A DNA stretch of 64,000 nt, taken from positions 266,724,001 through 266,788,000 of the forward strand of contig OZ024743.1 in the NCBI GenBank assembly GCA_964016885.1. The letters are read 5' to 3'. The notes beneath the pieces were generated by a model. That model made no database searches. It was not told the DNA's origin and was given only the letters and a program-made list of their open reading frames with translations. The position numbers and the translations under genes were made by a program. Below are positions 3,030 to 47,833 of the stretch, piece after piece. Within the stretch, counting starts at the first letter, position 1. Each line of letters begins with the position of its first letter. This stretch comes from Eledone cirrhosa (Eukaryota).

Positions 3030-5110
3030 TGAGTGGTACTCGTAACAGGTAACCCAGTACAACATATCACATGGTCGGGTCATCAACAACTAAACACTAA
3101 ACAGGTAACCCCACCAACCTTGCTTGGTGAGGAAGGTTATTTTGGACACCCTGCGGGACAAAAAACAAAAGGCAAAATAACTCATAAGAGCCAAGCGCTA
3201 GCCAGTAGTGTGTAAATGTGTATATTCTGTGTAGGTGTGGGTGTTTATGGGACTTATTGCACACGTGTCTGTGTGTGGATAATTGTGAAGAATCAAATAC
3301 CATTTAGAGCCTGAGCAAAGTTAGCTCATGCAGGCACATCCAAGCCACCAGCCTGGAGACGGAGTCTTAATGAAAAATACCAGAAAGGGAAACCTCCCAG
3401 AAACATGGAAAATCCAACTAGAGGGTGTTTGGATGTTCTATCAACAATACATCCACCTGTGGGATAAATAGGAGCTGTCATTCGTTTAAAAATTGGCTGT
3501 GCAATCCTGGATACGCGCTCTTGTATCCAGCTATCGAAAGAATGGACTATTCATTGATTTACACCAGAGTTCAAACAGCTGCCTTAGCTAATTTTCCTGA
3601 AACTCACACCTCATCTTCTGAGACTAATGACAGATCAGTCTTCAACCTGGACTCATCTAGACAGACTGTTCGAGATAGAGCAGAAGGCAAATTAAAGTGT
3701 TAACATTCCGCTCGCTTTAGCACATTCAAAGTCAATAACCTTGGTCCACTTGGCAGACTTGAAGTGTTAGTGACGAGGGCTAAATTCAACGCTATTGCCA
3801 TCATCAGTCTTCAAAAGCATAGACATTTCCAACCAGATCTAGACCTAATGTTTACAAAATCTGACATTTTCCAGCGTGTCACTGCCTCTGCATACAAAAA
3901 CACCAATAACGCCACCATTGGTGGAGTCGGTCTGCTTCTCTCATCAAAGGCACGCGGGAACCTCATCAACATCGAAAAGATAGACGATAGAATAATGGTT
4001 GCCGAGTTCAATACATATCCCAAACTCACATTTATATATTACTATAGCTCAACAAATAGCAGTGATGAAGAAACTGCCGCCAGTTTCTATCAGTCTCTAA
4101 GATCGGTCATTGAAGACGTCCATGCCCATAATTTCCTTACTATTGCAGGCGACTTCAATTCCAAACTAGGCCCTGACGATGTTCACCGAAACAAACCGGA
4201 ATGGTGAAATGCTTCTCCAACTCCTTGACGAATTTGAACTCTTCTCGTCTACAAATAGCTTCATGAAAAAACAATCCAAGCTCAGGTCATTCACCTATTC
4301 TAACGGTAGTAGGGCTCAATTGGATTATATCCTATTTCAGAAAAAATGGCGAAACAGTGTACGCGACTCTGAAACCTATGCCTCTTTCTCCAACGTGAGA
4401 TATTATCACAGGATTGTCTCTTCCAAAGTTACTCCTTGCCTTCACACTACAAAGAAAGTCCCCGCTGAGCATTTGAAACAAATTAATTGGAGGTAAGTGT
4501 CATCAAATTACGAGCTCTCCAGCCGGTATGCAATTAGTGTCTACAATATGTACTCAGGCAACAACATCAAAGCAATCGAGGGCAGTGATATCAAGCAAGT
4601 CGAGGATTTTAAGCATCTTCGGTATTGGATTATGGCCTCTGGGAAGGAGTTTGCCTCCAGAAATGCCCAAGCATGGTCAGCTTGCCACATATGGATCGAG
4701 TTTGGCACTCAAATCTTTCCAACCACACCAAGAAACAGACTCTTCCAAGTAACATTTCAACCAATTTTACTATATGGAAGTGAAACATGGACGCTTTCCT
4801 CCAAACAACAAAAGCACTTTGATGGCACTTACACTCGTCTACTTCGACGTGGTGACATCTGACTATGAAAGAAATATATGCCGGCCCCCACGCACATCTG
4901 TCGTTGTAATAAAAGGAGAGTAGGATTTGCTTGCCACTGCCATCGTGCCACCTCTGAGGTTGTGTCAGCACTAGTGCTCTGGAAACCACAACAGTCATTA
5001 ATAACTCTCCTATCCAGAGATTCTAGTATTGAAATCCAGGACATGGCAACGGCAATGAACGACATACCCACTTAGGGATCAAATTTTGAGTTGAGGCCGC
5101 CGGATGATGA
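3030..5110 (+). mobile_element. Internally deleted RTE-type LINE (APE endonuclease plus RT C-terminus)
   Basis: APE motifs IGGVGLLLS, AGDFNSKLG, NRNGEML, QLDYIL (3764-4496), then directly IKQVEDFKHL...ILLYGSETWTL (4560-4860); ends at GATGATGAT near 5110. Boundaries approximate. Confidence 0.8.
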
Positions 5111-7157: not shown

Positions 7158-7238
<81 letters not shown>

Positions 7239-7287
7239 ATAAAATAACAGGAGGCTGGACTGGTGTAAATCCTTGAAATGTTTATTT

Positions 7288-7343
7288 TACTATGATCATT
7301 TCAATGACCGGGTTCCATATGAATCCGGTGATATCATCAGGTA
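7288..7343 (-). ncRNA. Type I hammerhead ribozyme
   Basis: Minus: TAC CTGATGA tatcACCGGattcatatggaacCCGGTcatt GAAA TGATCA TA GTA; palindromic stem III ATGATCAT. Confidence 0.7.
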
Positions 7344-8416
7344 TTGGACAAAGGAATATGTAAAAAACATGGGTCCGAAAAATCAGAGAGAGAGACAAAG
7401 AGGACGACTGACCAACTAGCTGCTCGGCCAGTCGCCCTCAAAGTGATGGCAACTGAATCTACTAATGAACATCTGGTGAGGGGGCGAAGGCTTATAATGT
7501 ACTACCACCTCTCCGTCAAAGAAAAAAGGGAAGAAAGAAAGGGAGAAAGAAGTCAGTGTAAGGGTCACACTACATTCATGCGAGAACATGCTGCGAAAAA
7601 ATGCTACTCCAAAGAATCTATAATGAGTGTGTGTATGGTCTAACATATGGGTGTCTGTATGGTCTAATGCAAAATGATAAATTGAAAAATAAGTTATTAG
7701 AGAATTAAAGTAGCGAGATTTATTTATTTAATGAACTTAATAAATAATAAAAAATAATAAAATAACAAAATAATAAAATAATAAAAAATATACATTAATG
7801 AAATAATAAAAAAAATAATAAAGGTAAATAAGAATCAATATAGATCAAGTTGTAGTAAGATAATACAGGTTGTACATATAGATATTGAGGATGGAGGAGA
7901 TGGAATGGTAACAGGTTGTACTTAGTGTAAATTTCGGGTCTCCGAATTCAATGTGAGTCACAAACAGTCCTGAGGTATAGAGTAGAGAATTCAGTCAATA
8001 CAATACATGTTTTAGTATAATACGTATAGTTTTGTCGAAATCGGAATCATCCCGACAAGGAAGTAGTATTAGGTGGCGGTAGATATAGCACAGAGCAGCC
8101 AAAATCCGAATTGTAAGTAGATCAGTTAATCCCATGCTGGTAATAGTTGTACACTGAAATCAGTGCCGCTGTTCAATATTACATTTTGAAGTGCTCAACA
8201 TTATTGGAGCATTATTTCTTTAGGTTTGTTGGTTCACCACTGGATAGAACTGGTCATTCCGTATGGTCAATCCTGGTGTAATATTGTGAAGAGTACTCAA
8301 CGCAGTGCAGTTCACCCATCTTCGTTTGTGTAGTTGGTGGTGCGAATACGGAGTTAATTATAAATAAAATAAAATAACAGGAGGCTGGACTGGTGTAAAT
8401 CCTTGAAATGTTTATT

Positions 8417-8474
8417 ATACTATGATCATTTCAATGACCGGGTTCCATATGAATCCGGTGATATCATCAGGCAT
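8417..8474 (-). ncRNA. Type I hammerhead ribozyme
   Basis: Minus: ATGC CTGATGA ...ACCGG/CCGGT... GAAA TGATCA TA GTAT; stem I closes with a G-U pair. Confidence 0.7.
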
Positions 8475-8723
8475 TGGAATATAACAAAGGAATATGTAAA
8501 AAACCATGGGTCCGAAAAATCAGAGACAGAGACAAAGTGGACGACTGACCAACTAGCTGCTCGGCCAGTCGCCCTCAAAGTGGTGGCAACTGAATCTACT
8601 AATGAACATCTGGTGAGGGGCGAAGGCTTATAATGCACTACCACCTCTCCGTCAAAGAAAAAGGGGAAGAAAGAAAGGGAGAAAGAAGTCAATGTAAGGG
8701 TCACACTACATTCAAACCTAAAG

Positions 8724-8780
<57 letters not shown>

Positions 8781-23093: not shown

Positions 23094-26000
23094 ACAATTT
23101 TTAATGAGGGCTCATATATTCTAAACCATTCATGCGATTTCTTTGAAATTTTTTACAGAGCTTCTCCTTGCACAAAACCTGTACATGATTTACAAAGGCC
23201 TTTGGAGACATTAACAAATTTCGGTTATTTGTGTCAATTTTCGTGATTAAGTAAGACAAGAGTTATCTTTCGTCAATAAAATAGGAACTCATTTTTGATG
23301 TTGTCAAACATTTTGTTTGGGGATTTTGTTTATTATAATTCGGCTCATTCGGATTTTACTTTACTCTTTGTACTTGAAACAAAAGGTACGCTTCCTTGAG
23401 ACTAACAATATCATTTTGTATATTTCACAATCAGCAATTTCTAACAGATTACTAAGTTAAATTATAGATTTGACATTGTATAATTTATCGTTTCAACGTT
23501 GGTGTTCATACATTAAGTGATGTCATAACTTTTACAATAATATGCTTAAATTTATCGAAAGGATGATTTATACATCAACGACTTAAAATTATTCTATTTT
23601 TTCGCATTGATTAGACTACGTTTCTGACACATAATTTAGTTATTAACTTACATACCCTGTACATTTCTACCGTTACATGTACTTCAAATACATTTTACAA
23701 TTAATCTTTATTTTTACATTCGATTGTGTTATATCATGTCTACTTTACAGATTTCGTTTTGATGCCTCGTTGAAATAAAAGAAGTTGTCTCAGCAGATTG
23801 TCGACCGGTGTGGGTAAGGAAAAGCAGCGTCGAGCTAATGAAACTGAGGAGCAGAGGACAACGAGGTTATCCACATTAGCTGCCTACAACGCAAGACTCA
23901 ACACTTCGCATTCATCGCATCGATACTCAGTAGAAAATCTTGCGGCTCATATGGCAAAAAATGCACAAACCACTGCTGCTTCACGATCAAATGAGTCTAC
24001 AGAGGAACGTGCTATTCGGTGAGCGCTGAATGCTGCCGCGACTGCTGCCTCAAGAGCTGCGGAGACACCTAAACAACGCATACGTCGCCAGGCTTCCGAT
24101 TGTGCTTATCGGACTGCTGCGATAGCTTCTGAAACATTAGTTGAAAGAACTTCTCGACTACAAACAATTGCGCATCATCAAGCTGTTCTGCTTGGTGCAT
24201 CAAAGCCTACGAGGAATAGATGAGTTCTTAAGGTCTATCATTATGAACCCTCTGAAAATTATGCTAACCACAAAGATGTTGCCATTGGTCGTATGTCATA
24301 AATCTGTTTACACTCTAAAGCACTAACTTGGCCGGGAGAGTCTATTGGTCTATGCTGCTCAAATGGAAAGGCTTGTCTGCCCAGCAGCCCTGAAACTCCA
24401 CAGCCTTTAAAGTCCCTTCTGCTTGGTGAGCATCCATATTCTCAAGATTTCATGAACCGAATCCGGGCATACAATTCTGCATTTCAAATGACAAGTTTTG
24501 GTCATAAGCCCATATCTTATGGAAACTTTAATCCCACTTTTACCATTCAGGGACAGGCGTACCATTTAATCGGTTCTCCTCTACCAACAGATGCTTCTCA
24601 TCATAATTTTCTTCAGATATACTTCATGAGACCAGAGAGAGAGCAAATTGCACGTAGGGCTGCTGTTGCTCCAGGCACATACACGGCTGTTCTTGGACCT
24701 CTTCAGGAAATGTTTCATGAACACAACCGGTATATCAAACAATTTAAAACGGCTATTCAACGCCACCGGGCAGACAATGCCAACATTAAGGTTGTTATTA
24801 GAAATGACAGGACTCCTGTTGGGGAACATCCCCGCTGTTACAACCGACCCGAATCAGAGGAGGTTGCTGTTTTGCTTTGCAATCCCAATGCAACTCTTTC
24901 CAAAAGAGATATCATCCTAGAGTGGCAGGACTCCCGTCTTAATCTTAAGAGGACCAATGAATTAAATCCAGCCTATGACGCCCTTCAATACCCCTTACTC
25001 TTTCCCTTAATCCTGATATCCATACCATTGTACCTACAACAGACCAAACAGCACAGCCTCCAAAAATGGTTTCCCAGATGAACTTCTACAGTTACAGATT
25101 GATGGTTAGAACGAACAACTTCAACAGTCTTCACAGAGCAGGGGCTCTTCTGAATCAGTATTGTGTGGATATGTATGTTAAGGTAGGATTTATTCCCCTT
25201 TGAGTCATTTGTACTTTTTATTAAAATCTTTGCATAACCATCCTATTCCTTACCCTTGCAGATTGACTCGGAACGACTTCTTTGGATTCGCCATAATCAA
25301 AAGCAGCTCAGTGCAGATGAATATGCCAACGTTCGAGACGAGATTAATAGCAATGACAATGTAACTGCTTCTCAGGTTGTTATTCGAATCATCCTGCCAT
25401 CGTCATATACAGGCGACCCGAGGTATATGCATGAACAGATGCAGGATGCTCTCACATACGTTCGTCTTTACAACCGCCCATACCTTTTCATAACGTTCAC
25501 ATGCAACATCCAAATGTGCTTAATTTCCGGGCCAACGACCAGCAGATCGCCATGACATCACTGTTCGCGTTTTTCATCTTAAAGTTCGTAAAATGATTGA
25601 TTTATTTAAATGTGGTGAAATTTTCGGGCTGATAAAATGTTTTATGTATACTGTTGAATGGCAAAAACATGGTCTACCTCACGCCTACATGTTACTCTGG
25701 CTACAAAGCAAACTTCGACCTTCTGACGTGGACACAGTCATAAGTGCAGAATTTCCAAATCCCAATGAAGACCCCCAGTTATACGAAATCATTCGAAAAA
25801 ATAAGGTTCATTGGCCATGTCGGCACTTTAATTCTACGTCTTCATGGATGGCAAACGGAAAATGCACTAAGAAATATCCACGAAAGCTTTGGGCTGAGAT
25901 GAACACAGGTAACGACGATTACCCATTATATCGCAGAAGAGCTCCTGGACATGGCGGTTTCGCAGCAACAATCAAACATGGATCTAACCGGGAATTTACA

Positions 26001-28778
26001 ATTGACAATCAGTGGGTTGTTCACATAACAAGATGCTATGCAAGACATTTAATGCGCATATTAAATGCGCATATTAATGCGCATGTTCAATATTGTAACT
26101 CAGTTAAATCTATACGTTACGATTGCAAATATGTCAATAAGGGATCGCAAAGAGCCGTCTTTCAAGTGGCACCAACATATTAGGTAGAACTGTTTCAAAT
26201 AGGGCGTTATATCTCAACCAATGAGGCCGTTTGGAGAACGTTTGGTTTCCCTATGCACGAGCGATTCCCCCTGTTCAACATCTCAGTGTTCACTTAGAGG
26301 ACAAGCAGAGAGTTTAATTCACTGACGAAAAGTTACGTCAACAGGTTCTTTTCCCACGTACGAGAACTTTGACTGCATTTTTCGAACTCTGTACGGTTAA
26401 CTCCTAAGCAAAAACCCTTCTGTGTGTTGATGTTCCTCATTATTATTCTTGGAACCACTGAACTTGCTTATGGCAAAGAAGAAAACAGGGCCGACATATC
26501 GATTAAGATCCTGCCATTTTTGAAGGTGACACAATAGGACGCAATACTGTTCATCCTTTCAACTTTGAATGCTTCCATCTTCGACTGCTGCTTCACGTTG
26601 TACGTGGACCAACATCCTTTGTAGCCCTTCGCAAAGTGGACGGTCAATTATGCAAGACATTCAATGACGCCTGGTTTAAACGGGCACTCATCGATACGGA
26701 CAACCATTATGAAAGTACACTTGAGGAAGCGTCTCTCCGATGATCTCCGTCAAAGCTTCGGCATATATTCGCCATTATGCTGGTTTTCTGCAACTATGTT
26801 AACTCGCCTTCATTGTGGAATAAATACAGGGACCACCTGTGCCACGATATATGGCTTCAAACCTGTCAAGCTACCGAAAATCCCACCACTGCTTTTACCC
26901 GCTGATCTAATTATCTTGGAGGACTTATTCCCCGGATAGAAACCAAGAGCAAACTTTTAATCGACTCCTCCCTAGAGAAACCAGCTACGACAAAACCAAG
27001 CTTCGACAATACGTAGCTGTCAACGAGCCTCTCCTTAATCCAGATCAAGAATCTGCATACAAATCCGTTCTAAACAAGGTATACTGCAATACTGGCGGGA
27101 TTATTTTCATAGATGCACCTGGAAGGACCGTTAAAGCAGTTCTGCTTAATCTTATTCTTGCTAAGGTAAGGCAGAATGACGACATTGCACTTGCTGTTGC
27201 CTCTTCCGGTATAGCTGCGACTCTTTTAGAAGGTGGCGCACATCACACTCGACCTTCAAGCTGCCACTGAACGTCGTCCATCAAGAGAATCCCATCTGCA
27301 ATATCTCACATAGTTCTGACGAAGCTGCTATGTTGAAAAGCTGTAAACTAATTGTGTTGGATGAGGCAACCATGTCCCATAAAGGGCCTCTTCAGGCACT
27401 AGATACCACAATGAAAGATCTTAGATCTAATGACAATATATTTGGAGGAGCCACTCTTCTTCTCGCAGGTCACTTCAGACAGACACTTCCTGTGGTACCA
27501 AATGGATCAGCTGCTGATGAAGTGGACGCCTGCTCAAAAAGTCCTCTTTTGGCAGTTTGTTGAGGTACAAAACCTAACAATTAATATGCGATCGCTATTA
27601 AAAGCTGGTCGTCTGTCTACGCCATTTTCCACTCAACTCCTCCAAATCGGTGATGGTCAACTTGAGTCCGACGACAATGGATACATTGACACTTCTACCA
27701 TTGGCCATTCACTCTCGACGCCCATGACTTATGTTCTTCAGTTTATCCAAATCTTTCAACTGAATTCATGAATCCTGATTGGCTTTGTGAGAGGGCTATT
27801 CTTGCACCCACAAATGCTGCTGTTAAGCTGATCAATCACGAAATAGTTGGTCAGTTGCCCTCTATTCAACGCTGTTACAAGTCAGTTGACACTGTTACAG
27901 ACTTTGATCAAGTGACCAACTTCCCAACAGAGTTTCTTAACTCTCAGGATCCTCCAGGACTACCTCCTCACGAGTTGTATCTAAAAGTTGGAGCTCCTAT
28001 TATCCTGCTACGTAATTTATCCCCCCTCCCCCTTTCTATTAATGGAACAAGCCTGGTGGTAAAGCAACTGATGAACCTTGTAATTGAGGCAGAAATAATC
28101 ACAGGACCCGGGCGATATGAATCTGTTTTTATTCCCAATATTCCTTTTAACCCTTCTGATTGTCCATTTACCATGAAAAGGTTACAATTCCCACTGAAGA
28201 TTAGTTTTGTAATGACCATAAACAAATATCAAGGCCAATCTCTTAAAGTTGTTGGTCTTGATCTTCGAACCCATTGCTTTTCACATGGTCAGTTTTACGT
28301 TGGCTTTTCTCGAGTTGGTAATCCTGACAACCAATTTATTTATTCTCCTGACGGGAAAACCAAAAATGTTGTGTATAAATCTACTCTTCAATAATCCAAA
28401 AGACAATGAGTACTCCCACCCAACATCCACCTCTTTTTATAACGATTTGCTCATCCATCAGTTCCCCCCTGTTATGTCCAATCTGTATTGTTATTCTAAC
28501 CTATGTACATAATAGAGTCTATTATTCACTTCACTTCTCCATTTCATGATGCGCTTTTACTGTTGTCAAAAAAATGTAAACCTAGACTGGATTTCTGTTG
28601 TTATGGGATAACGGATGACACCGAGCTCACACATTAATTATATCGCTGGAAAGTGCCTAATGTTTTCATATTTAAATAAAGTACGTTTTTCTTCTATGTA
28701 TTCAAATTTACATTGTTTAGTTTAATGAGCTACATCGAAAGCTAATTAAACCGTCCAAAGGACGGGTACTTTAGCTAG
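23025..28778 (+). mobile_element. Full-length Helitron (decayed RepHel)
   Basis: 5' A|TCTGTATATATATAAAGCTGAAG; 3' hairpin CCGTCC-AAA-GGACGG then GTACTTTAG CTAG|T; AT target inside (TA)n. Confidence 0.9.
23762..28394 (+). pseudogene. Helitron Rep/Pif1-helicase gene, disrupted by frameshifts and stops
   Basis: IRAYNSAFQMTSFG, YDALQYPLLF; Rep motifs LFITFTCN, VEWQKHGLPHAYML, RYDCKYVNKG; helicase DAPGRTVK (mutated Walker A), IVLDEATM, AGHFRQTLPV, RAILAP, MTINKYQGQSL, HGQFYVGFSRV. Confidence 0.92.
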
Positions 28779-30477: not shown

Positions 30478-30686
30478 GTATCTTGATCACGGTTTTACAG
30501 CTGATGAAGGATTTCTTTTCTTCTTTTCTTTTCTTCTCTAATATATATATATATATATTCATTAGTTAAACAAAACAAGACCACACATTTCACAAGGAAG
30601 ACATTATTAAAAGATTGTCAACATATGTTAGTTTGATGTAAGGAATGTAGCGAATAATAATAATAATATTAATAATAATAATGTCC

Positions 30687-30805
30687 GTTTATAATTGTTT
30701 CGCTACTACATATAATATTTCTGGATCAAATGACTATATATCAGTATTGATCTGGTTCAGTTGAAAATAATTAACATAGTTAAAGATGGAGCGGCTCATC
30801 GGAAC
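30687..30805 (-). ncRNA. Hammerhead motif in inverted Penelope pLTR
   Basis: Reverse-complement copy of 33231-33349 with the same CCGATGA core. Confidence 0.5.
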
Positions 30806-33230
30806 TTCAAAGGAATATAAATTAAAATAAGGAAAGAATGTTACATAACTCCTGAAACTTACAACTCTTTCCTTCTTAAGGAACTTAATAAAAACTATAA
30901 AACAACTATACCCTCCAGTGTAAACGTACTTAACCGAAAAACCCAGGCTTTGGTTAAGGACTTGCATCTGGATAGATTTACCCACCCTTATGAACCAACA
31001 ACCCCAAGGTTCTCTCTCAAGTATCATAAGCCAAAATTTATAGAGAACCCATCTATTAGACTTATAAACCCAATCACATCCGACCTGGGTCGTATCAGTA
31101 AGAACATCCTTGATAGGATCATCCCTGGGCTACGGGATGATATCACCTACAAGTTGTGGTCCAACACCGACCAAGTCATTAGATGGTTAACCGATCTAAG
31201 GTCCAAGCAATCTATGAGGTTCATCCAATTTGACATTGACAGTTATTACGCTTCAATAACCCCGGAACTGCTCAACAAAGCATTAATCCTAGCCAGCACC
31301 AACTCGGACATAACCAATAATGAGATTGACATCATACTTATGGCTAGGCAGCACTCTGGACTAGAAAAGACAGAACAGACAACTTTGACATCACGATGGG
31401 CTCAAGTTACTCTGCGCAAATCACCGATTTAGTTGGAATTTACCTATTACATAACATCAGAGCCGAAATCCAACTCTTGCAAGGCGGAATACACAGCGAC
31501 GACGCCCTATTTGCAGTCCACAATTGCACTAATCGGGGCATTAATTTGCTCAAAAAACAATTACTTAGATTCTTTAAAAATAACGGTCTCTCTATCACCA
31601 TCGAGCCGAACCATAAAGTAGTAAACTTCCTAGACGTCACCCTGGTTCTTAACAATAACCTATATTACCCTTACCATAAACCAGGTGAAATACTTACATA
31701 TATTAGCCCAGACTCTAACCACCCACCGGCAGTCATCAGAGCAGTAATCAAATCTCTCTCATATAGGATCTCCATGCGATCAGCAAATGAGGAGATATTT
31801 ATAAACCATGCTCCATATTATAATAAGGTTCTTTCTGAATCTGGTTATGACCAGTCCATATACTAAAATACCTAAATGCCATAACATAGCAATTCACCAT
31901 AATAAACTTAACACTAGAACTAGAAATACCTTAGCATATAGCCAGATTCGCCGGAATTTTAGCAGTAACAGCACCTATACAGGGAACATTAATGGTGGCA
32001 GCGGCCTGCTTCCCACTCCAAGTAGCAAACTAAAAATCAACCCTAGAATATGAATGAGCAATGGGATGACAAATAACAAATTCCCAGGTAATAATAATCC
32101 TAGGAAGGCCACTACCAACTCCACTAGAACCCCTAGAAGGAATAGGCCTAGAAATATCACCTGGCTCAACCACCTATTCTCATCTAATCTAGCCACTAAT
32201 ATCCCTACACGCTTCTTCTCTATCCTATCTAAACATTTTCCCCAACCATAGATATTACAAACTCTTTAATAAAAATAACATTAAAATCTCATTCTCCATA
32301 ACACCTAACCTAGCTAGCCACATCATATTCAGTAACCATCCTAAAGTAAGACAGTATAACTCCCACACCGCGGTATCACCACCCCTATCATATACACCAC
32401 GCCACTATACCAATACTTACTCTAGTAGCACACCTCCCCATCTAATCCTTCTAACACTGACCAACCGCTTAGGTTAAACTACCCTACTCTCACTAACTGC
32501 AGAAGTAACTGCAACTGCCGTTACCCTAAAACTGCTTCGAATACCAGCTCCTATATCGGGTCTACCTCTATCCCTTTTAAGGTACGCTATAACGCGCACT
32601 CTTTTTCCTTCCGAGACCCTAACAACAGATGTTCGACATCTCTAGCTAAGCTCATTAAAAACCTTAAATTAACCACCATTGAACACTCACTAACATGGGA
32701 TATCTTAGCTAGGGCCCAACCGTTCAATAGATGAAGAAAATCTTGTGATCTCTGTATTACCGAAGCATATTACATAACTCTATCACGACCTCTACCGATT
32801 AACGATATAACGGAGGTAACTATCAGCTGTCAACATCGAAGGGCTAATTCCTTCGCCAACATATTATTTGAGCCAACATAGTCATCCTGCCCCATTTTTA
32901 CTTGTAGTTAATAAGTTAAATAGCTATAACTAACTTAGATAATTATAAGTTACCTCCCTTACATTGTCTCTCAATTAAAAAATTAGCACTTAACTATAAA
33001 CTACCCACAATTTCTAATCTCTCGAGGAGTTACTTCCCCTGAAACCACCTTCTAATGGCGGCCATCTTGTTACCCATAGGCAGATCTCACACAATGCAAC
33101 CCCGACAGAAGAATACTGCTTGATTATGGCAGACAATTGATACACCCAGGACTCCATAGTGAAATACCAATATATGGAACATTAAATTTATGTAACATTC
33201 TTTCCTTATTTTAATTTATATTCCTTTGAA

Positions 33231-33349
33231 GTTCCGATGAGCCGCTCTATCTTTAACTATGTTAATTATCTTCAACTGAACCAGATCAATAATGATATAT
33301 AGTCATTTGATCCAGAACTATTATATGGAGTAGCGAAACAATTGTAAAC
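33231..33349 (+). ncRNA. Hammerhead motif in Penelope pLTR, ~95 nt stem II
   Basis: GTT CCGATGA GCcgCTCTAT...ATGGAGtaGC GAAAC AATTG TA AAC. Confidence 0.55.
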
Positions 33350-33655
33350 GGACATTATTATTATTAATATTATTATTATTATTCTCTACATTCCTTATAT
33401 CAAACTAAAGTATGTTGACAATCTTTTAATAATGTCTTCTTTGTGAAATTTGTGGTTTGTTTTGCTTAACTAATGAATATTTCCAGCTCTGTGCGCCCAA
33501 TTTCTGCATGAACCCAGCCACCTAGCTTCTTTCTACTGCATATTGCACATTGAGCACATGCCTTTACTCTTTGGCTTCTAACTAATCCACCACTCTCTCC
33601 TCTCCATCTCCTCTCCTATCTCCATCTCTCTCTCTAAGATTGGTTACTCTTGAAC

Positions 33656-36882: not shown

Positions 36883-37221
36883 TAGCTGTTTGTAAACAAC
36901 GCCTGCTTTGTGTCTCCTTATTTATATACGTATATATGTATATACCTGCTATGGTTATATAGCTTCTAATTAAATAGCAAGTAGCATGGGAGCCATGTCG
37001 GTGTAATGGTAACACATTGGTCCGGCTAACCAAAGATGTGGGTTCGTGTCCCATGTACATCAATACTCATCATTTTTCTGAGGATTTTTTTAAAATCCCA
37101 ACTAAAAGACTAATTTTTTTAGTCAAATACGGCGGAAGCACATGTTAATAACACATTTTCAAATTCGCTGGTAGTTTGTAAACAGAGCCTGCTTTGTGCC
37201 TCCCTAATTATATGTATACAT

Positions 37222-42938: not shown

Positions 42939-43486
42939 AGAAATATATAATATAATATAATAAGTAGAGGAATATAAATGAAACCAAATGGGAGTAAAAT
43001 TTAGATATAATATAGATAAAATATTATATAGGTAAGAAAATACTAAAGTTTGTGTAAGTAATGTATTGTGTTAGAGTGGTTAGAATGAAGTTTTCTCTGT
43101 AGGGAATTATATTTTCGAATACGAGTCTACATTAATAATCTTTTTTTTTTTCTAAAAAGGAGGTTTAAATGAATATCAGTTAAAAAGTGTGTTAGATTAT
43201 TGAAAATAATGTAATATATAGTGCTAAAATATAGTTAATTATATAAAACAGTTATAGGGATGAGATAGAGGATTTAATCCATGGTTTATTCTAATAGCAG
43301 AATATATATATATATATATATAGATAGATATACACACGCATATATATACACATATATATACATACACATACGTATATACACACACATACATACACATATA
43401 TATATATACATGCAAACATACATACACATACTAAATACACACACATAAATACATATACACACACATATGTATATAGGAATACACTT

Positions 43487-44895
43487 ATGAAATATAAGCA
43501 TATTAGGAAATTCCTCAAAAATTACTATAATCTTACAGTTACTTTTGAAAATAGCACTAAAATTGTCAATTTCCTCGACATCACATTGGACCTATCAACA
43601 TGCACTTACCAACCTTACCACAAACCAAACCAAAACCTCCAGTATATACACTCACTATCTAACTACCATAGTTCCATACTAAAAAATCTAGTGTACAATA
43701 TCTCACTCAGATTATCTAAATTATCATCTAATGAAGAAATATTCTATAAAAATGCCCTTATTATAATGAGGCTTTAACTAGAACTGGCTACAAAGATAAA
43801 TTATTTTACATACCTAACACCATGAATACACCTAACATACAGCCAAGCATTAGCAACAAAGACGTAGAAAACACCAAAAAGAAACCTTTTAGAAACCATA
43901 AAAGAAATGTAACATGGTATAACGCTCCATTCAACTTGCAACTATGGGCCAAATCCCTGAAAAAATGTTTACAATTCTCGATAAGCATTTCCCACCTAAC
44001 CACAAATACCATCAAATCTTAAACAGAAATACAGTAAAATTTTCTTACTCCACATCGAGCAATATACAACAAAAAATAAGTGCGTATAACATCTATAAAT
44101 GTAAAAAAACCTCCATCTATACCACACATAATAGCACACCACACACAATATAATTATGGTAATACTACAACGCGTAACCAGAATATTACAGCATAACCAC
44201 CTGCTACATCCGCTCACTCACCTTACCGGCACAATATAGCAGCCTACAACCAACTATCATCTTCCTCATCCTTAATAGGGACTAAGAATTACATACCCAA
44301 TCTAACCAATAGCTTCCAAATCAACCATGATTCTATAAACTCTATATCTAGTATAATTTCACCAACTAACAACAATTCGGGCCGCAACCACCCAACCGTA
44401 AACCCTTCTCTCCCAAATAAAAAGGTAAACACAAATACTAGCACTATTATTGAGAATACGGATAGCACATCTGAAACCCTATATGCAAACGATTGTAATT
44501 GTAGAATAAAAGATAATTGCCCCTTAAATGGAAATTGCTTAATTAATAATATAGTATATAAATGTATAACCACCACTAAGGACTCTCATCAATCCTATAT
44601 TGGATCCACTTCTAATCCGTTTAAATGGAGATTTTATGCACACACCCACAGTTTCCAAAATATAAAATTAGCTAATACCACTTCTTTAGGAGAAGCAGTT
44701 AATAATTGTAAAAAGAGGAATATTAAATATAACCTAACTTGGAAGATTCTTAAGAGAACTATTTCTTATCAGGGCAATAGAAGGGAGAGACGACTGTGTT
44801 CCCAAGAAATTTTTGAAATTATTAAATCGAAGGACACTCTATTAAATAAAAGACAAGAATTAATTATAGTATGTAACCATAAAATTAGAAGGACA
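43487..44895 (+). mobile_element. Penelope-like element, 5' truncated (RT thumb + GIY-YIG)
   Basis: IVNFLDITLDL, YQPYHKPN, RNVTWYNAPF, TVKFSYS, CNCRIKDNCPLNGNCLINNIVYKC, SYIGSTSNPFKWRFYAH. Confidence 0.9.
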
Positions 44896-45032
44896 TTCAA
44901 ATATTATAAATACAACTAAACAAATATGGAAAATGATATAGGGGAAAAAATGTGTGGGTATATGTGTGTGTGTAAATATGTATATGTGGGTGTGTATATG
45001 TATGTGTATGCATAAGTGTATGCCTATATACA

Positions 45033-45460
45033 TAGAATATTTCTTCATTAGATGATAATTTAGATAATCTGAGTGAGATATTGTACACTAGATTTTTTAG
45101 TATGGAACTATGGTGGTTAGATAGTGAGTGTATATAATGGAGGTTTTGGTTTGGTTTGTGGTAAGGTTGGTAAGTGCATGTTGATAGGTCCAATGTGATG
45201 TCGAGGAAATTGACAATTTTAGTGCTGTTTTCAAAAGTAACTGTAAGATTATAGTAATTTTTGAGGAATTTCCTAATATGCTTATATTTCATAAGTGTAT
45301 TCCTATATACATATGTGTGTGTATATGTATTTATGTGTGTGTATTTAGTATGTGTATGTATGTTTGCATGTATATATATATATGTGTATGTATGTGTGTG
45401 TATATACGTATGTGTATGTATATATATGTGTATATGTATGAGTGTGTAAATATCTATCTA

Positions 45461-45509
<49 letters not shown>

Positions 45510-47684: not shown

Positions 47685-47833
47685 CATGGAACTCTTTTAA
47701 CCATCTTTTGATCTTATATATTATGTATACTCCAGTCCTACAAACTGTAGAGTGCTTCTTATCCGATATCTGCATTGCTTTATTGTACTACAATAAAACT
47801 GACCTCCTACATATATATATATATATATATACA

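What the first reader, a model, noticed from the sequence alone, without database searches (positions are those of the whole stretch)
7231..8714. LTR-like retrozyme candidate: two hammerheads 1130 nt apart bounding a non-coding spacer
Two ~350 bp direct repeats each carry an intact minus-strand hammerhead followed by AATAAA. The spacer shows no coding signal. Double self-cleavage would release a ~1130 nt RNA that could circularise. This layout resembles plant LTR retrozymes and is longer than the few-hundred-nt animal non-LTR retrozymes. The palindromic ATGATCAT would let the two ribozymes pair as a dimer in one transcript (inference).
Basis: partly seen in the sequence, partly recalled or inferred. 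Interest (0 to 1): 0.75.

Follow-up and report, generated by a model that had tools for sequence, protein, structure and literature searches.

The report
Long non-coding Penelope hitchhiker with hammerhead
This is a shortened copy of an abundant repeat with no detected protein gene, whose 1.9-kb unit carries a hammerhead (self-cutting RNA) motif and two predicted small hairpins beside the two fixed places where copies end, so it is likely copied by Penelope-type jumping-gene enzymes and is not a plant-style LTR retrozyme.

Summary
The repeats (7229-7578, 8359-8714; 95.5% identical) and both minus-strand type I hammerhead cores, 1130 nt apart, are real. The LTR-retrozyme reading fails. The locus is one copy of a family with at least 5,103 hammerhead sites. 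Its usual hammerhead-to-hammerhead unit is about 1.9 kb (19 of 22 units). This copy lost about 790 nt through two deletions whose junctions match nowhere else. The 'LTRs' are a Penelope partial tandem. 5' ends vary, but 117 of 122 3' ends fall about 57 or 203 nt past the cleavage site, into (TA)n, and 29 of 30 inverted pairs have one of each (146-nt tail). No ORF or Penelope remnant was found. Each fixed end lies a few bases before a predicted bulged hairpin that also occurs in published Hydra-clade Penelope consensus sequences. A third copy mid-unit is never used as an end. Verdict: a probably dead, deleted copy of a long non-autonomous Hydra-type Penelope element. Cleavage, circles and the partner element are untested; no RNA data were available. 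The scan found this end signature and the hairpin pair before, on other families of this genome.

The parts
8713..8728 (+). Inverted remnant of the long (tail) 3' end, running into (TA)n; second outward end of the insertion
   Evidence: 16-nt exact reverse complement of 8213-8228 (E 0.083 alone, but it sits at the junction and ends at the family's fixed long end)
8359..8714 (-). 5' pseudo-LTR: 5'-truncated partial tandem unit (unit 1609-1908 plus 1-57)
8399..8490 (-). Type I hammerhead, RNA-5' copy: core 8470-8421, 4-bp core stem I plus predicted extended stem I, long stem II closed by U-U, palindromic stem III; predicted cleavage after A8421
   Evidence: activity untested
8213..8358 (-). 146-nt tail: the stretch between the family's two fixed 3' ends (unit about 57 to 203)
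   Evidence: loose (TA)n ends in DNA contigs at 8213/8219 and 8359/8367
8292..8354 (-). Predicted bulged hairpin 1 (ACTC - inner stem - 2-nt bulge - GAGT-RCT), about 5 nt past the short end
8190..8210 (-). Predicted bulged hairpin 2 (GCTC ... GAGC-ACT), a few nt past the long end; inner stem only 1-2 pairs
   Evidence: 32 of 44 sites not ending in a TA run carry it exactly; lead from earlier notes
7753..8212 (-). Non-coding unit body, unit 204-672
7740..7752 (-). Junction of private deletion 1 (about 713 nt, unit 673-1385, which includes the third hairpin)
   Evidence: 35-nt junction pattern has 1 hit in the genome
7644..7739 (-). Unit 1386-1464, then private deletion 2 (about 77 nt) with a 24-nt local duplication
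   Evidence: 22-nt junction pattern has 1 hit in the genome
7229..7578 (-). 3' repeat: end of the main unit, ending at the short fixed end (about 57-60 nt past cleavage) in (TA)n
7269..7355 (-). Type I hammerhead, RNA-3' copy: core 7340-7291 intact, stem I weakened (3 pairs, 6-nt deletion)
7160..7230 (.). Left flank (CA)n(TA)n microsatellite; target
8726..8777 (.). Right flank (TA)n microsatellite; target (a TSD cannot be read)

Best explanation
The locus is an internally deleted copy of an abundant 1.9-kb repeat with a type I hammerhead motif and no detected ORF, which was likely inserted into a (TA)n run by the reverse transcriptase-endonuclease of a Hydra-clade Penelope-like element acting in trans. 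Inferred mechanism: the protein binds two bulged RNA hairpins downstream of the hammerhead and starts cDNA a few bases before one or the other (about 57 or 203 nt past the cleavage site), one start on each side of the cut target. That gives the one-sided 146-nt tail, the inverted arm and variable 5' truncation. Both starts lie downstream of the cleavage site and the cDNA runs back across it, so the template must be joined there. I favour a circular 1.9-kb monomer made by dimer cleavage of tandem transcripts (about 0.45) over an uncut read-through RNA (about 0.4). Copying beyond one unit makes the direct repeats. The 1130-nt spacing comes from two deletions private to this locus; I give about 0.1 that this copy yields a detectable 1.13-kb circle. 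Shown: family, unit length, end geometry, target, private junctions, motif positions. Inferred: partner clade, hairpin function, cleavage, circle.
For: Family: 139 matches and 3,259 first-look candidates, 40 scored; 5,103 exact hits to a 29-nt hammerhead pattern, reversed control 0. Unit: 19 of 22 hammerhead-to-hammerhead units are 1839-2008 nt. Ends: of 156 unique sites, 68 stop at 45-65, 49 at 190-212, 34 read through, 5 other; a TA run follows 67 of 68 and 46 of 49; 29 of 30 outward inverted pairs are short plus long. 5' extent in 40 hits taken from the position-ordered list: 47-2275 nt, median about 165. The same two ends occur in a subfamily only about 70-78% identical, where the 80 nt around the hammerhead match at 77 of 80 against 157 of 240 upstream and 169 of 240 downstream (one B unit against the A consensus). 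Junction patterns have 1 hit each. Hairpin motif: 159 hits with an inner stem against 1 in reversed sequence, with at least five different complementary inner stems downstream of hammerheads of unrelated families; the GCTC/GAGC version is seen by eye in 3 of 6 published Hydra consensus sequences. Hydra-type ORFs (DKT, CxCX5C, CxxC, CxH) are abundant here and Hydra targets (TA)n. The tail equals the stretch between two internal RT starts in Poseidon (PMC11167929).
Against: No autonomous element sharing this pseudo-LTR was found among the loci examined; the one candidate (L230) is a one-off chimera, since 39 of the 40 best hits stop at its junction. The tail is 146 nt against 30-40 nt in print. 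A third perfect hairpin in mid-unit is read through 84 times and no family copy ends there, so the hairpin alone does not set a start. Hairpin 2 has only 1-2 inner pairs, and neither tail segment folds better than shuffles (z -0.16 and 0.02). 27 of 40 other-family hammerhead sites without an early TA run lack the motif; I saw none in Hydra-1_Obim, one mismatched version in Hydra-1_Crog, and Hydra-1_Amil is too short to test. Most of the 159 motif hits are copies of a few families and are not independent. Stem II closes with U-U where G10.1-C11.1 is reported as highly conserved; 8 of 9 Xenopus retrozyme dimers did not cleave in vitro, and uncut RNA was the main Poseidon template. No A-to-G excess marks an edited RNA intermediate (39 against 67 T-to-C).
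Confidence: 0.82

Rival explanations
1. Plant-type LTR retrozyme: true LTRs with hammerheads bound a non-coding core, a 1130-nt circle is the replicating form, and a Ty3/Gypsy partner inserts it.
For: Two 350-bp direct repeats with hammerheads and a non-coding spacer resemble the plant layout of 300-400-bp repeats and a 300-600-bp core (PMC4918200). The 1130-nt sequence folded as a circle is somewhat more stable than 12 shuffles (z -3.2).
Against: Type I rather than type III hammerhead; no PBS, PPT or TG...CA pair in either orientation; 5' boundary varies freely among copies; inverted arms and a tail; junctions unique.
Confidence: 0.02
2. Same Penelope-type mobilisation, but from uncut read-through transcripts of tandem source copies. 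The hammerhead is conserved as a protein-assisted or structural element and no circle is needed.
For: Poseidon inserts equally well with dead hammerheads, and no reads started or ended at the cleavage site. The predicted active fold is unfavourable and stem II closes with U-U. Arrays seen reach only about 2.1-2.3 units, unlike long retrozyme arrays.
Against: The hammerhead is the most conserved part between subfamilies. Greater-than-unit copies must be regenerated somehow, which is the published argument for circles.
Confidence: 0.4
3. Decayed or truncated autonomous Penelope element whose spacer is an ORF remnant.
For: Penelope-type ends; autonomous units of similar clades are under 3 kb.
Against: Longest ATG ORFs are 89 aa in the 22-copy consensus and 75 aa in the subfamily B unit; tblastn of 14 long ORFs including Hydra RT-EN gives best E 0.56; 161 ORFs gave only self hits below E 0.005. 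Other PLE clades were thinly represented among the queries.
Confidence: 0.05
4. Local DNA duplication or assembly artefact created the direct repeats.
For: The two repeats share substitutions against the consensus (17 counted, partly an alignment effect around one indel, against 3 and 4 private). One other locus (L070) has two 100% identical units.
Against: The repeats differ by 8 substitutions and 3 indels. The same partial-tandem layout recurs in at least 19 other units, and this copy has one short and one long family end.
Confidence: 0.03

Closest known systems
Metazoan non-LTR retrozymes (Cervera and de la Pena 2020, PMC7229834, passages read; Li, Clavereau and Pollet 2026, bioRxiv 10.64898/2026.07.22.740005, parts 1-3 of 5 read)
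   Same: Non-coding, type I hammerhead once per unit, head-to-tail units, low GC (35%), proposed Penelope dependence
   Different: Unit 1.9-2.4 kb against 170-400 nt and 51-972 bp (that survey's tandem finder was capped at period 1000); mostly short 5'-truncated, often inverted insertions, not long arrays; expression and circles untested here
Hydra clade of Penelope-like elements (Craig et al. 2021, PMC8557442; passages, section 11 and supplement parts 52-53 read)
   Same: (TA)n target, hammerhead near the 3' end, partial tandem pseudo-LTR, inverted 5'-truncated arm, one-sided tail; bulged hairpin seen in 3 of 6 consensus sequences
   Different: No RT-EN ORF; tail 146 nt against 30-40 nt; a third hairpin in mid-unit; no partner identified
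Poseidon_Ac of the green anole (Frangieh et al. 2024, PMC11167929; parts 1-2 of 4 read)
   Same: Two internal RT start sites downstream of the hammerhead define the tail; AT-rich target
   Different: Autonomous, other clade, short tail; the start region there is described as an AC-rich stem-loop, and its sequence file could not be read here
Plant LTR retrozymes (Cervera et al. 2016, PMC4918200; passages read)
   Same: Two 300-400-bp direct repeats with hammerheads around a non-coding core
   Different: Those have mostly type III hammerheads, a PBS, a PPT, 4-bp TSDs and Ty3/Gypsy ends; none is present here
Non-autonomous Chlamys PLEs such as MRC1 (passage in PMC8557442)
   Same: Non-autonomous PLE first mistaken for an LTR element because of its pseudo-LTR, the same misreading as here
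   Different: Green algae; most Chlamys lack hammerheads

Membership tests
Plant LTR retrozyme | Type III hammerhead in each LTR | tested here: not met
   Stem I is the open helix and stem III the closed palindrome, so type I
Plant LTR retrozyme | PBS after the 5' LTR and PPT before the 3' LTR | tested here: not met
   Neither is seen in either orientation (by inspection)
Plant LTR retrozyme | Fixed LTR termini | tested here: not met
   5' extent 47-2275 nt in 40 copies; two alternative 3' ends
Plant LTR retrozyme | 4-bp target site duplication | tested here: inconclusive
   Both flanks are (TA)n, so no TSD can be read
Penelope-like element (structure) | Partial tandem forming a pseudo-LTR, with 5' truncation | tested here: met
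   definition
Penelope-like element (structure) | Inverted 5'-truncated arm with a tail on one end only | tested here: met
   29 of 30 pairs; this copy ends short at 7231 and long at 8728; the tail is longer than the published 30-40 nt
Penelope-like element (structure) | Type I hammerhead with palindromic stem III in the pseudo-LTR | tested here: met
   definition; the U-U closure of stem II is atypical
Autonomous Penelope-like element | Single ORF with RT and GIY-YIG endonuclease | tested here: not met
   Pfam is uninformative because it also missed the 4 real PLE fragments given as controls
Hydra-clade dependence | (TA)n insertion bias | tested here: met
   113 of 117 fixed ends are followed by a TA run; Naiads share this target, so it is not diagnostic alone
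Hydra-clade dependence | Pseudo-LTR sequence shared with an autonomous Hydra family | tested here: inconclusive
   None among 36 Hydra-ORF loci or 64 hammerhead-pattern loci; only the hairpin motif is shared; the genome could not be searched exhaustively
Metazoan non-LTR retrozyme | Head-to-tail non-coding units, each with a type I hammerhead | tested here: met
   L113 and L070 hold three same-strand hammerheads about 1.9 kb apart
Metazoan non-LTR retrozyme | Unit of about 50-1000 nt | tested here: not met
   1.9 kb and 2.4 kb
Metazoan non-LTR retrozyme | Self-cleavage and accumulation of linear and circular RNA | not testable with these tools
   No RNA run was available; needs bench work

The most novel reading that the evidence does not exclude
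This family is a kilobase-scale animal retrozyme: a 1.9-2.4-kb non-coding circular RNA, two to five times longer than any animal retrozyme in the papers read, that has parasitised Hydra-clade Penelope enzymes through several subfamilies. Its pair of bulged hairpins, conserved from coral and sea cucumber elements to this genome, is the undescribed RNA signal that places a telomerase-related reverse transcriptase at two start points and sets tail length. The unused third hairpin shows that hammerhead-proximal context licenses the signal.
Probability: 0.3. Interest if true: 0.75.

Novelty: new variant of a known kind. Interest (0 to 1): 0.48.

Why it matters
How Penelope-like elements choose their internal start sites, and what their hammerheads do, are stated open questions (PMC8557442, PMC11167929). 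This family gives a clean natural test set: two starts spaced unusually far apart (146 nt), a hairpin beside each, and a third hairpin that is never used. It also extends hammerhead-bearing non-coding Penelope passengers beyond the 1-kb limit of the one published survey read here. The locus itself is a decayed copy and matters mainly as a warning: pseudo-LTRs plus an internal deletion mimic an LTR retrozyme.

Tried and rejected
Rfam: no hammerhead model hit in the window or in two full units; only chance hairpin families. Pfam on 8 unit ORFs: nothing, but it also missed 4 real PLE fragments, so it was not used as evidence. An antisense frame of 86-117 aa in the deleted middle part: broken by a stop in the consensus, no family hit; rejected as a gene. 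Search for the autonomous partner through 150 GIY-YIG hits (30 loci plus 6 long stretches) and 64 hammerhead-pattern loci: none. L230 as partner: rejected as a one-off chimera. Linking the commonest other hammerhead family to Hydra ORFs: only 1 of 30 short loci (L094) had it directly behind the ORF, so that link is weak. RNA-editing scars: no A-to-G excess in singletons of 22 units. Sequencing runs: no RNA holder listed, which is no evidence on expression. Three DNA contig sets (at most one sample, possibly the assembly's own) laid on 7590-8630 showed the two fixed ends but did not span the deletion junction. The end tally was not de-duplicated and was replaced. Literature: no paper describing the hairpin pair or a kilobase animal retrozyme turned up in searches. 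Repbase, subscription journals, the bioRxiv supplements and the Poseidon sequence file were not visible and may hold an entry for this family. The cephalopod terms in two searches were my guess at the host and come from no call.

Full report
Observation. The window holds two direct repeats, 7229-7578 and 8359-8714, 95.5% identical over 357 columns with 8 substitutions and 3 indels. Each carries on the minus strand a hammerhead core (CTGATGA at 8470 and 7340), a long stem II, GAA, the palindrome ATGATCAT and the cleavage nucleotide A at 8421 and 7291, 1130 nt apart. Stem I is the open helix, so the topology is type I. The right copy has a 4-pair core stem I and a predicted extension that pairs the AATAAA; the left copy has 3 pairs and a 6-nt deletion in that extension. 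Rfam does not detect either motif. The active monomer fold is predicted 10 kcal/mol above an inactive rod in which the core strands pair with each other, and the palindrome gives an 8-pair duplex of -7.2 kcal/mol. This fits the dimer requirement published for Penelope hammerheads (PMC4209133, parts 1-2 of 4 read). Stem II closes with U-U, where that paper reports a conserved G-C. The flanks are (CA)n(TA)n and (TA)n. A 16-nt inverted piece, 8713-8728, matches 8213-8228.

It is one copy of a large family. A DNA search of the own 3.0-Gb genome gave 139 matches from 40 scored of 3,259 candidates; a 29-nt hammerhead pattern has 5,103 exact hits, with 0 for the reversed control. Among the 30 best loci, 22 hammerhead-to-hammerhead units could be cut out: 19 are 1839-2008 nt, and the others are 1545, 1389 and this copy's 1130 (these loci were chosen for long matches). 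Against the 1908-nt consensus, this copy lacks unit positions 673-1385 and 1465-1541 and has a 24-nt local duplication. Exact patterns across the two junctions each hit once, here, so no daughter of the 1130-nt form was seen; diverged daughters could escape an exact search. A sister subfamily at about 70-78% identity has at least 40 scored copies and one measured unit of 2393 nt, and further subfamilies exist.

It is non-coding. The longest ATG frames are 76 aa in this copy, 89 aa in the consensus and 75 aa in the sister unit; tblastn with 14 long ORFs including Hydra RT-EN proteins of this genome gives best E 0.56, and 161 ORFs gave only self hits below E 0.005. Pfam found nothing but also missed four real Penelope fragments.

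The ends are those of a Penelope-like element. In 201 loci there were 258 hammerhead sites; 25 were dropped for too little downstream DNA and the rest collapse to 156 unique sites. Of these, 68 stop 45-65 nt after the cleavage site, 49 stop at 190-212, 34 read through and 5 stop elsewhere; a TA run follows 113 of the 117 fixed ends. Of 30 outward-facing inverted pairs, 29 have one short and one long end. The 5' side is ragged: 47-2275 nt, median about 165, in 40 hits taken from the position-ordered list. This copy obeys the rule: short end at 7231, long end at 8728. DNA contigs of at most one sample show TA-bearing loose ends at the same two places. Partial tandem, inverted arm, one-sided tail and (TA)n target are the published PLE structure (PMC8557442; PMC3846280 passages; PMC8969392 passage), and in Poseidon the tail is the stretch between two internal RT starts (PMC11167929). 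The tail here is 146 nt against 30-40 in print. The features of plant LTR retrozymes (type III, PBS, PPT, 4-bp TSD; PMC4918200) are absent or unreadable.

A shared signal in the tail. Other hammerhead families in the loci held also have a short end (about 36-55 nt) and a long end (about 100-150 nt), and several carry ACTC - inner stem - bulge - GAGT-RCT just after the short end. A scan found 251 unique motif hits, 159 with an inner stem, against 9 and 1 in reversed sequence; inner stems differ between families yet stay complementary (CGT/ACG, CGT/GCG, CAA/TTG, CAG/CTG, GTC/GAC and others). Most hits are copies of a few families, and 27 of 40 other-family hammerhead sites without an early TA run lack it. 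In the six Hydra consensus sequences of Craig et al. (File S7), I saw by eye a GCTC/GAGC-ACT version in Hydra-2_Amil, Hydra-2_Ajap and twice in Hydra-1_Ajap, a mismatched one in Hydra-1_Crog, none in Hydra-1_Obim; Hydra-1_Amil stops too early. Earlier notes of this scan describe the same end signature and a hairpin pair on other families; their claim of a second hairpin behind the long end was new to me. It holds here: hairpins at 8354-8292 and 8210-8190, with the second present exactly in 32 of 44 sites that do not end in a TA run, though with only 1-2 inner pairs. A third perfect hairpin at unit 912, deleted from this copy, is read through 84 times; the pattern for an end there hit 3 places, none of them family sequence. 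The hairpin is therefore not sufficient. Tail segments do not fold better than shuffles.

Partner. Hydra-type ORFs with DKT, CxCX5C, CxxC and CxH motifs are abundant (61,311 candidates, 150 scored), two fragments lie in this window, but none examined shares this pseudo-LTR. L230 joins a young Hydra ORF directly to a subfamily copy, but 39 of 40 best hits stop at that junction. It may be a template switch or a later deletion. The partner clade is inferred from target, hammerhead style and hairpin.

Mechanism. Both fixed starts lie downstream of the cleavage site and cDNA continues back across it, so a cut linear monomer cannot be the template. It is either a ligated circle, as proposed in PMC4209133 and shown to exist for short animal retrozymes (PMC7229834 passages), or uncut RNA, as in the Poseidon assay. 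The hammerhead is the best-conserved part between subfamilies (77 of 80 against 157 and 169 of 240), and arrays reach 2.1-2.3 units. That leans slightly to a circle but does not decide it. One array has two identical units and could be a recent duplication or an assembly artefact; the other has units 5.5% apart. No editing scar was found.

Verdict. The family is a long non-autonomous Penelope-type passenger, longer than the 51-972-bp retrozymes of the 2026 survey, whose tandem finder was capped at 1000. Not found in print in searches; Repbase and subscription journals were not visible. New variant of a known kind; interest 0.48, carried by the testable hairpin pair with its built-in negative control rather than by this locus.

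Noticed in passing
window 46578(+), 47497(-), 47625(+): A second hammerhead family (palindrome ATGCGCAT) with direct copies 1047 nt apart, an inverted copy, short and long ends and the tail hairpin at 47729; the same architecture as the finding.
   Followed up: partly
window 41631(+), 54100(+), 62691(+), 9709(+), 40637(+), 30065(+), 55125(+), 60182(-): Further hammerhead-like motifs of other families; 41631 shares the U-U closure of stem II, and 41631, 54100 and 62691 carry the tail hairpin.
   Followed up: partly
window 30573-33463 and 43302-45477: Broken Penelope-type ORF fragments inside inverted repeats of 276 and 446 nt; the second has a Hydra-type GIY-YIG end (44197-44919).
   Followed up: partly
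L125:262-2655 (minus strand count); L214, L222, L228-L230: Sister subfamilies: a 2393-nt unit with an internal duplication, and a younger group 94-97% identical to each other, all with the same two ends.
   Followed up: partly
L230:2410-2430: One-off junction of a 99%-identical young Hydra ORF to a subfamily copy with no TA run between; possible reverse-transcriptase template switch between passenger and driver RNA.
   Followed up: partly
L002:2734-2763 (unit 912): Third perfect bulged hairpin in mid-unit, with degenerate copies further on; never used as an insertion end; may be a relic of another element's tail.
   Followed up: yes
L070 (two 1903-nt units): Two adjacent units 100% identical though 4% from the consensus: recent tandem duplication or assembly artefact.
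   Followed up: no
L066, L069, L167, L052, L054, L101: Many short fold-back insertions without a hammerhead carry the same hairpin motif and end in (TA)n; they look like tail-only stubs of other families.
   Followed up: no
window 24302-28394: Broken ORFs that look like a Helitron Rep-helicase (label recalled from the motifs, not from a call).
   Followed up: no
window 37000-37054: Weak tRNA-like match (Rfam 34 bits), probably a SINE head.
   Followed up: no
window 3704-4862: Fragments that look like a LINE endonuclease and RT C-terminus (label recalled).
   Followed up: no
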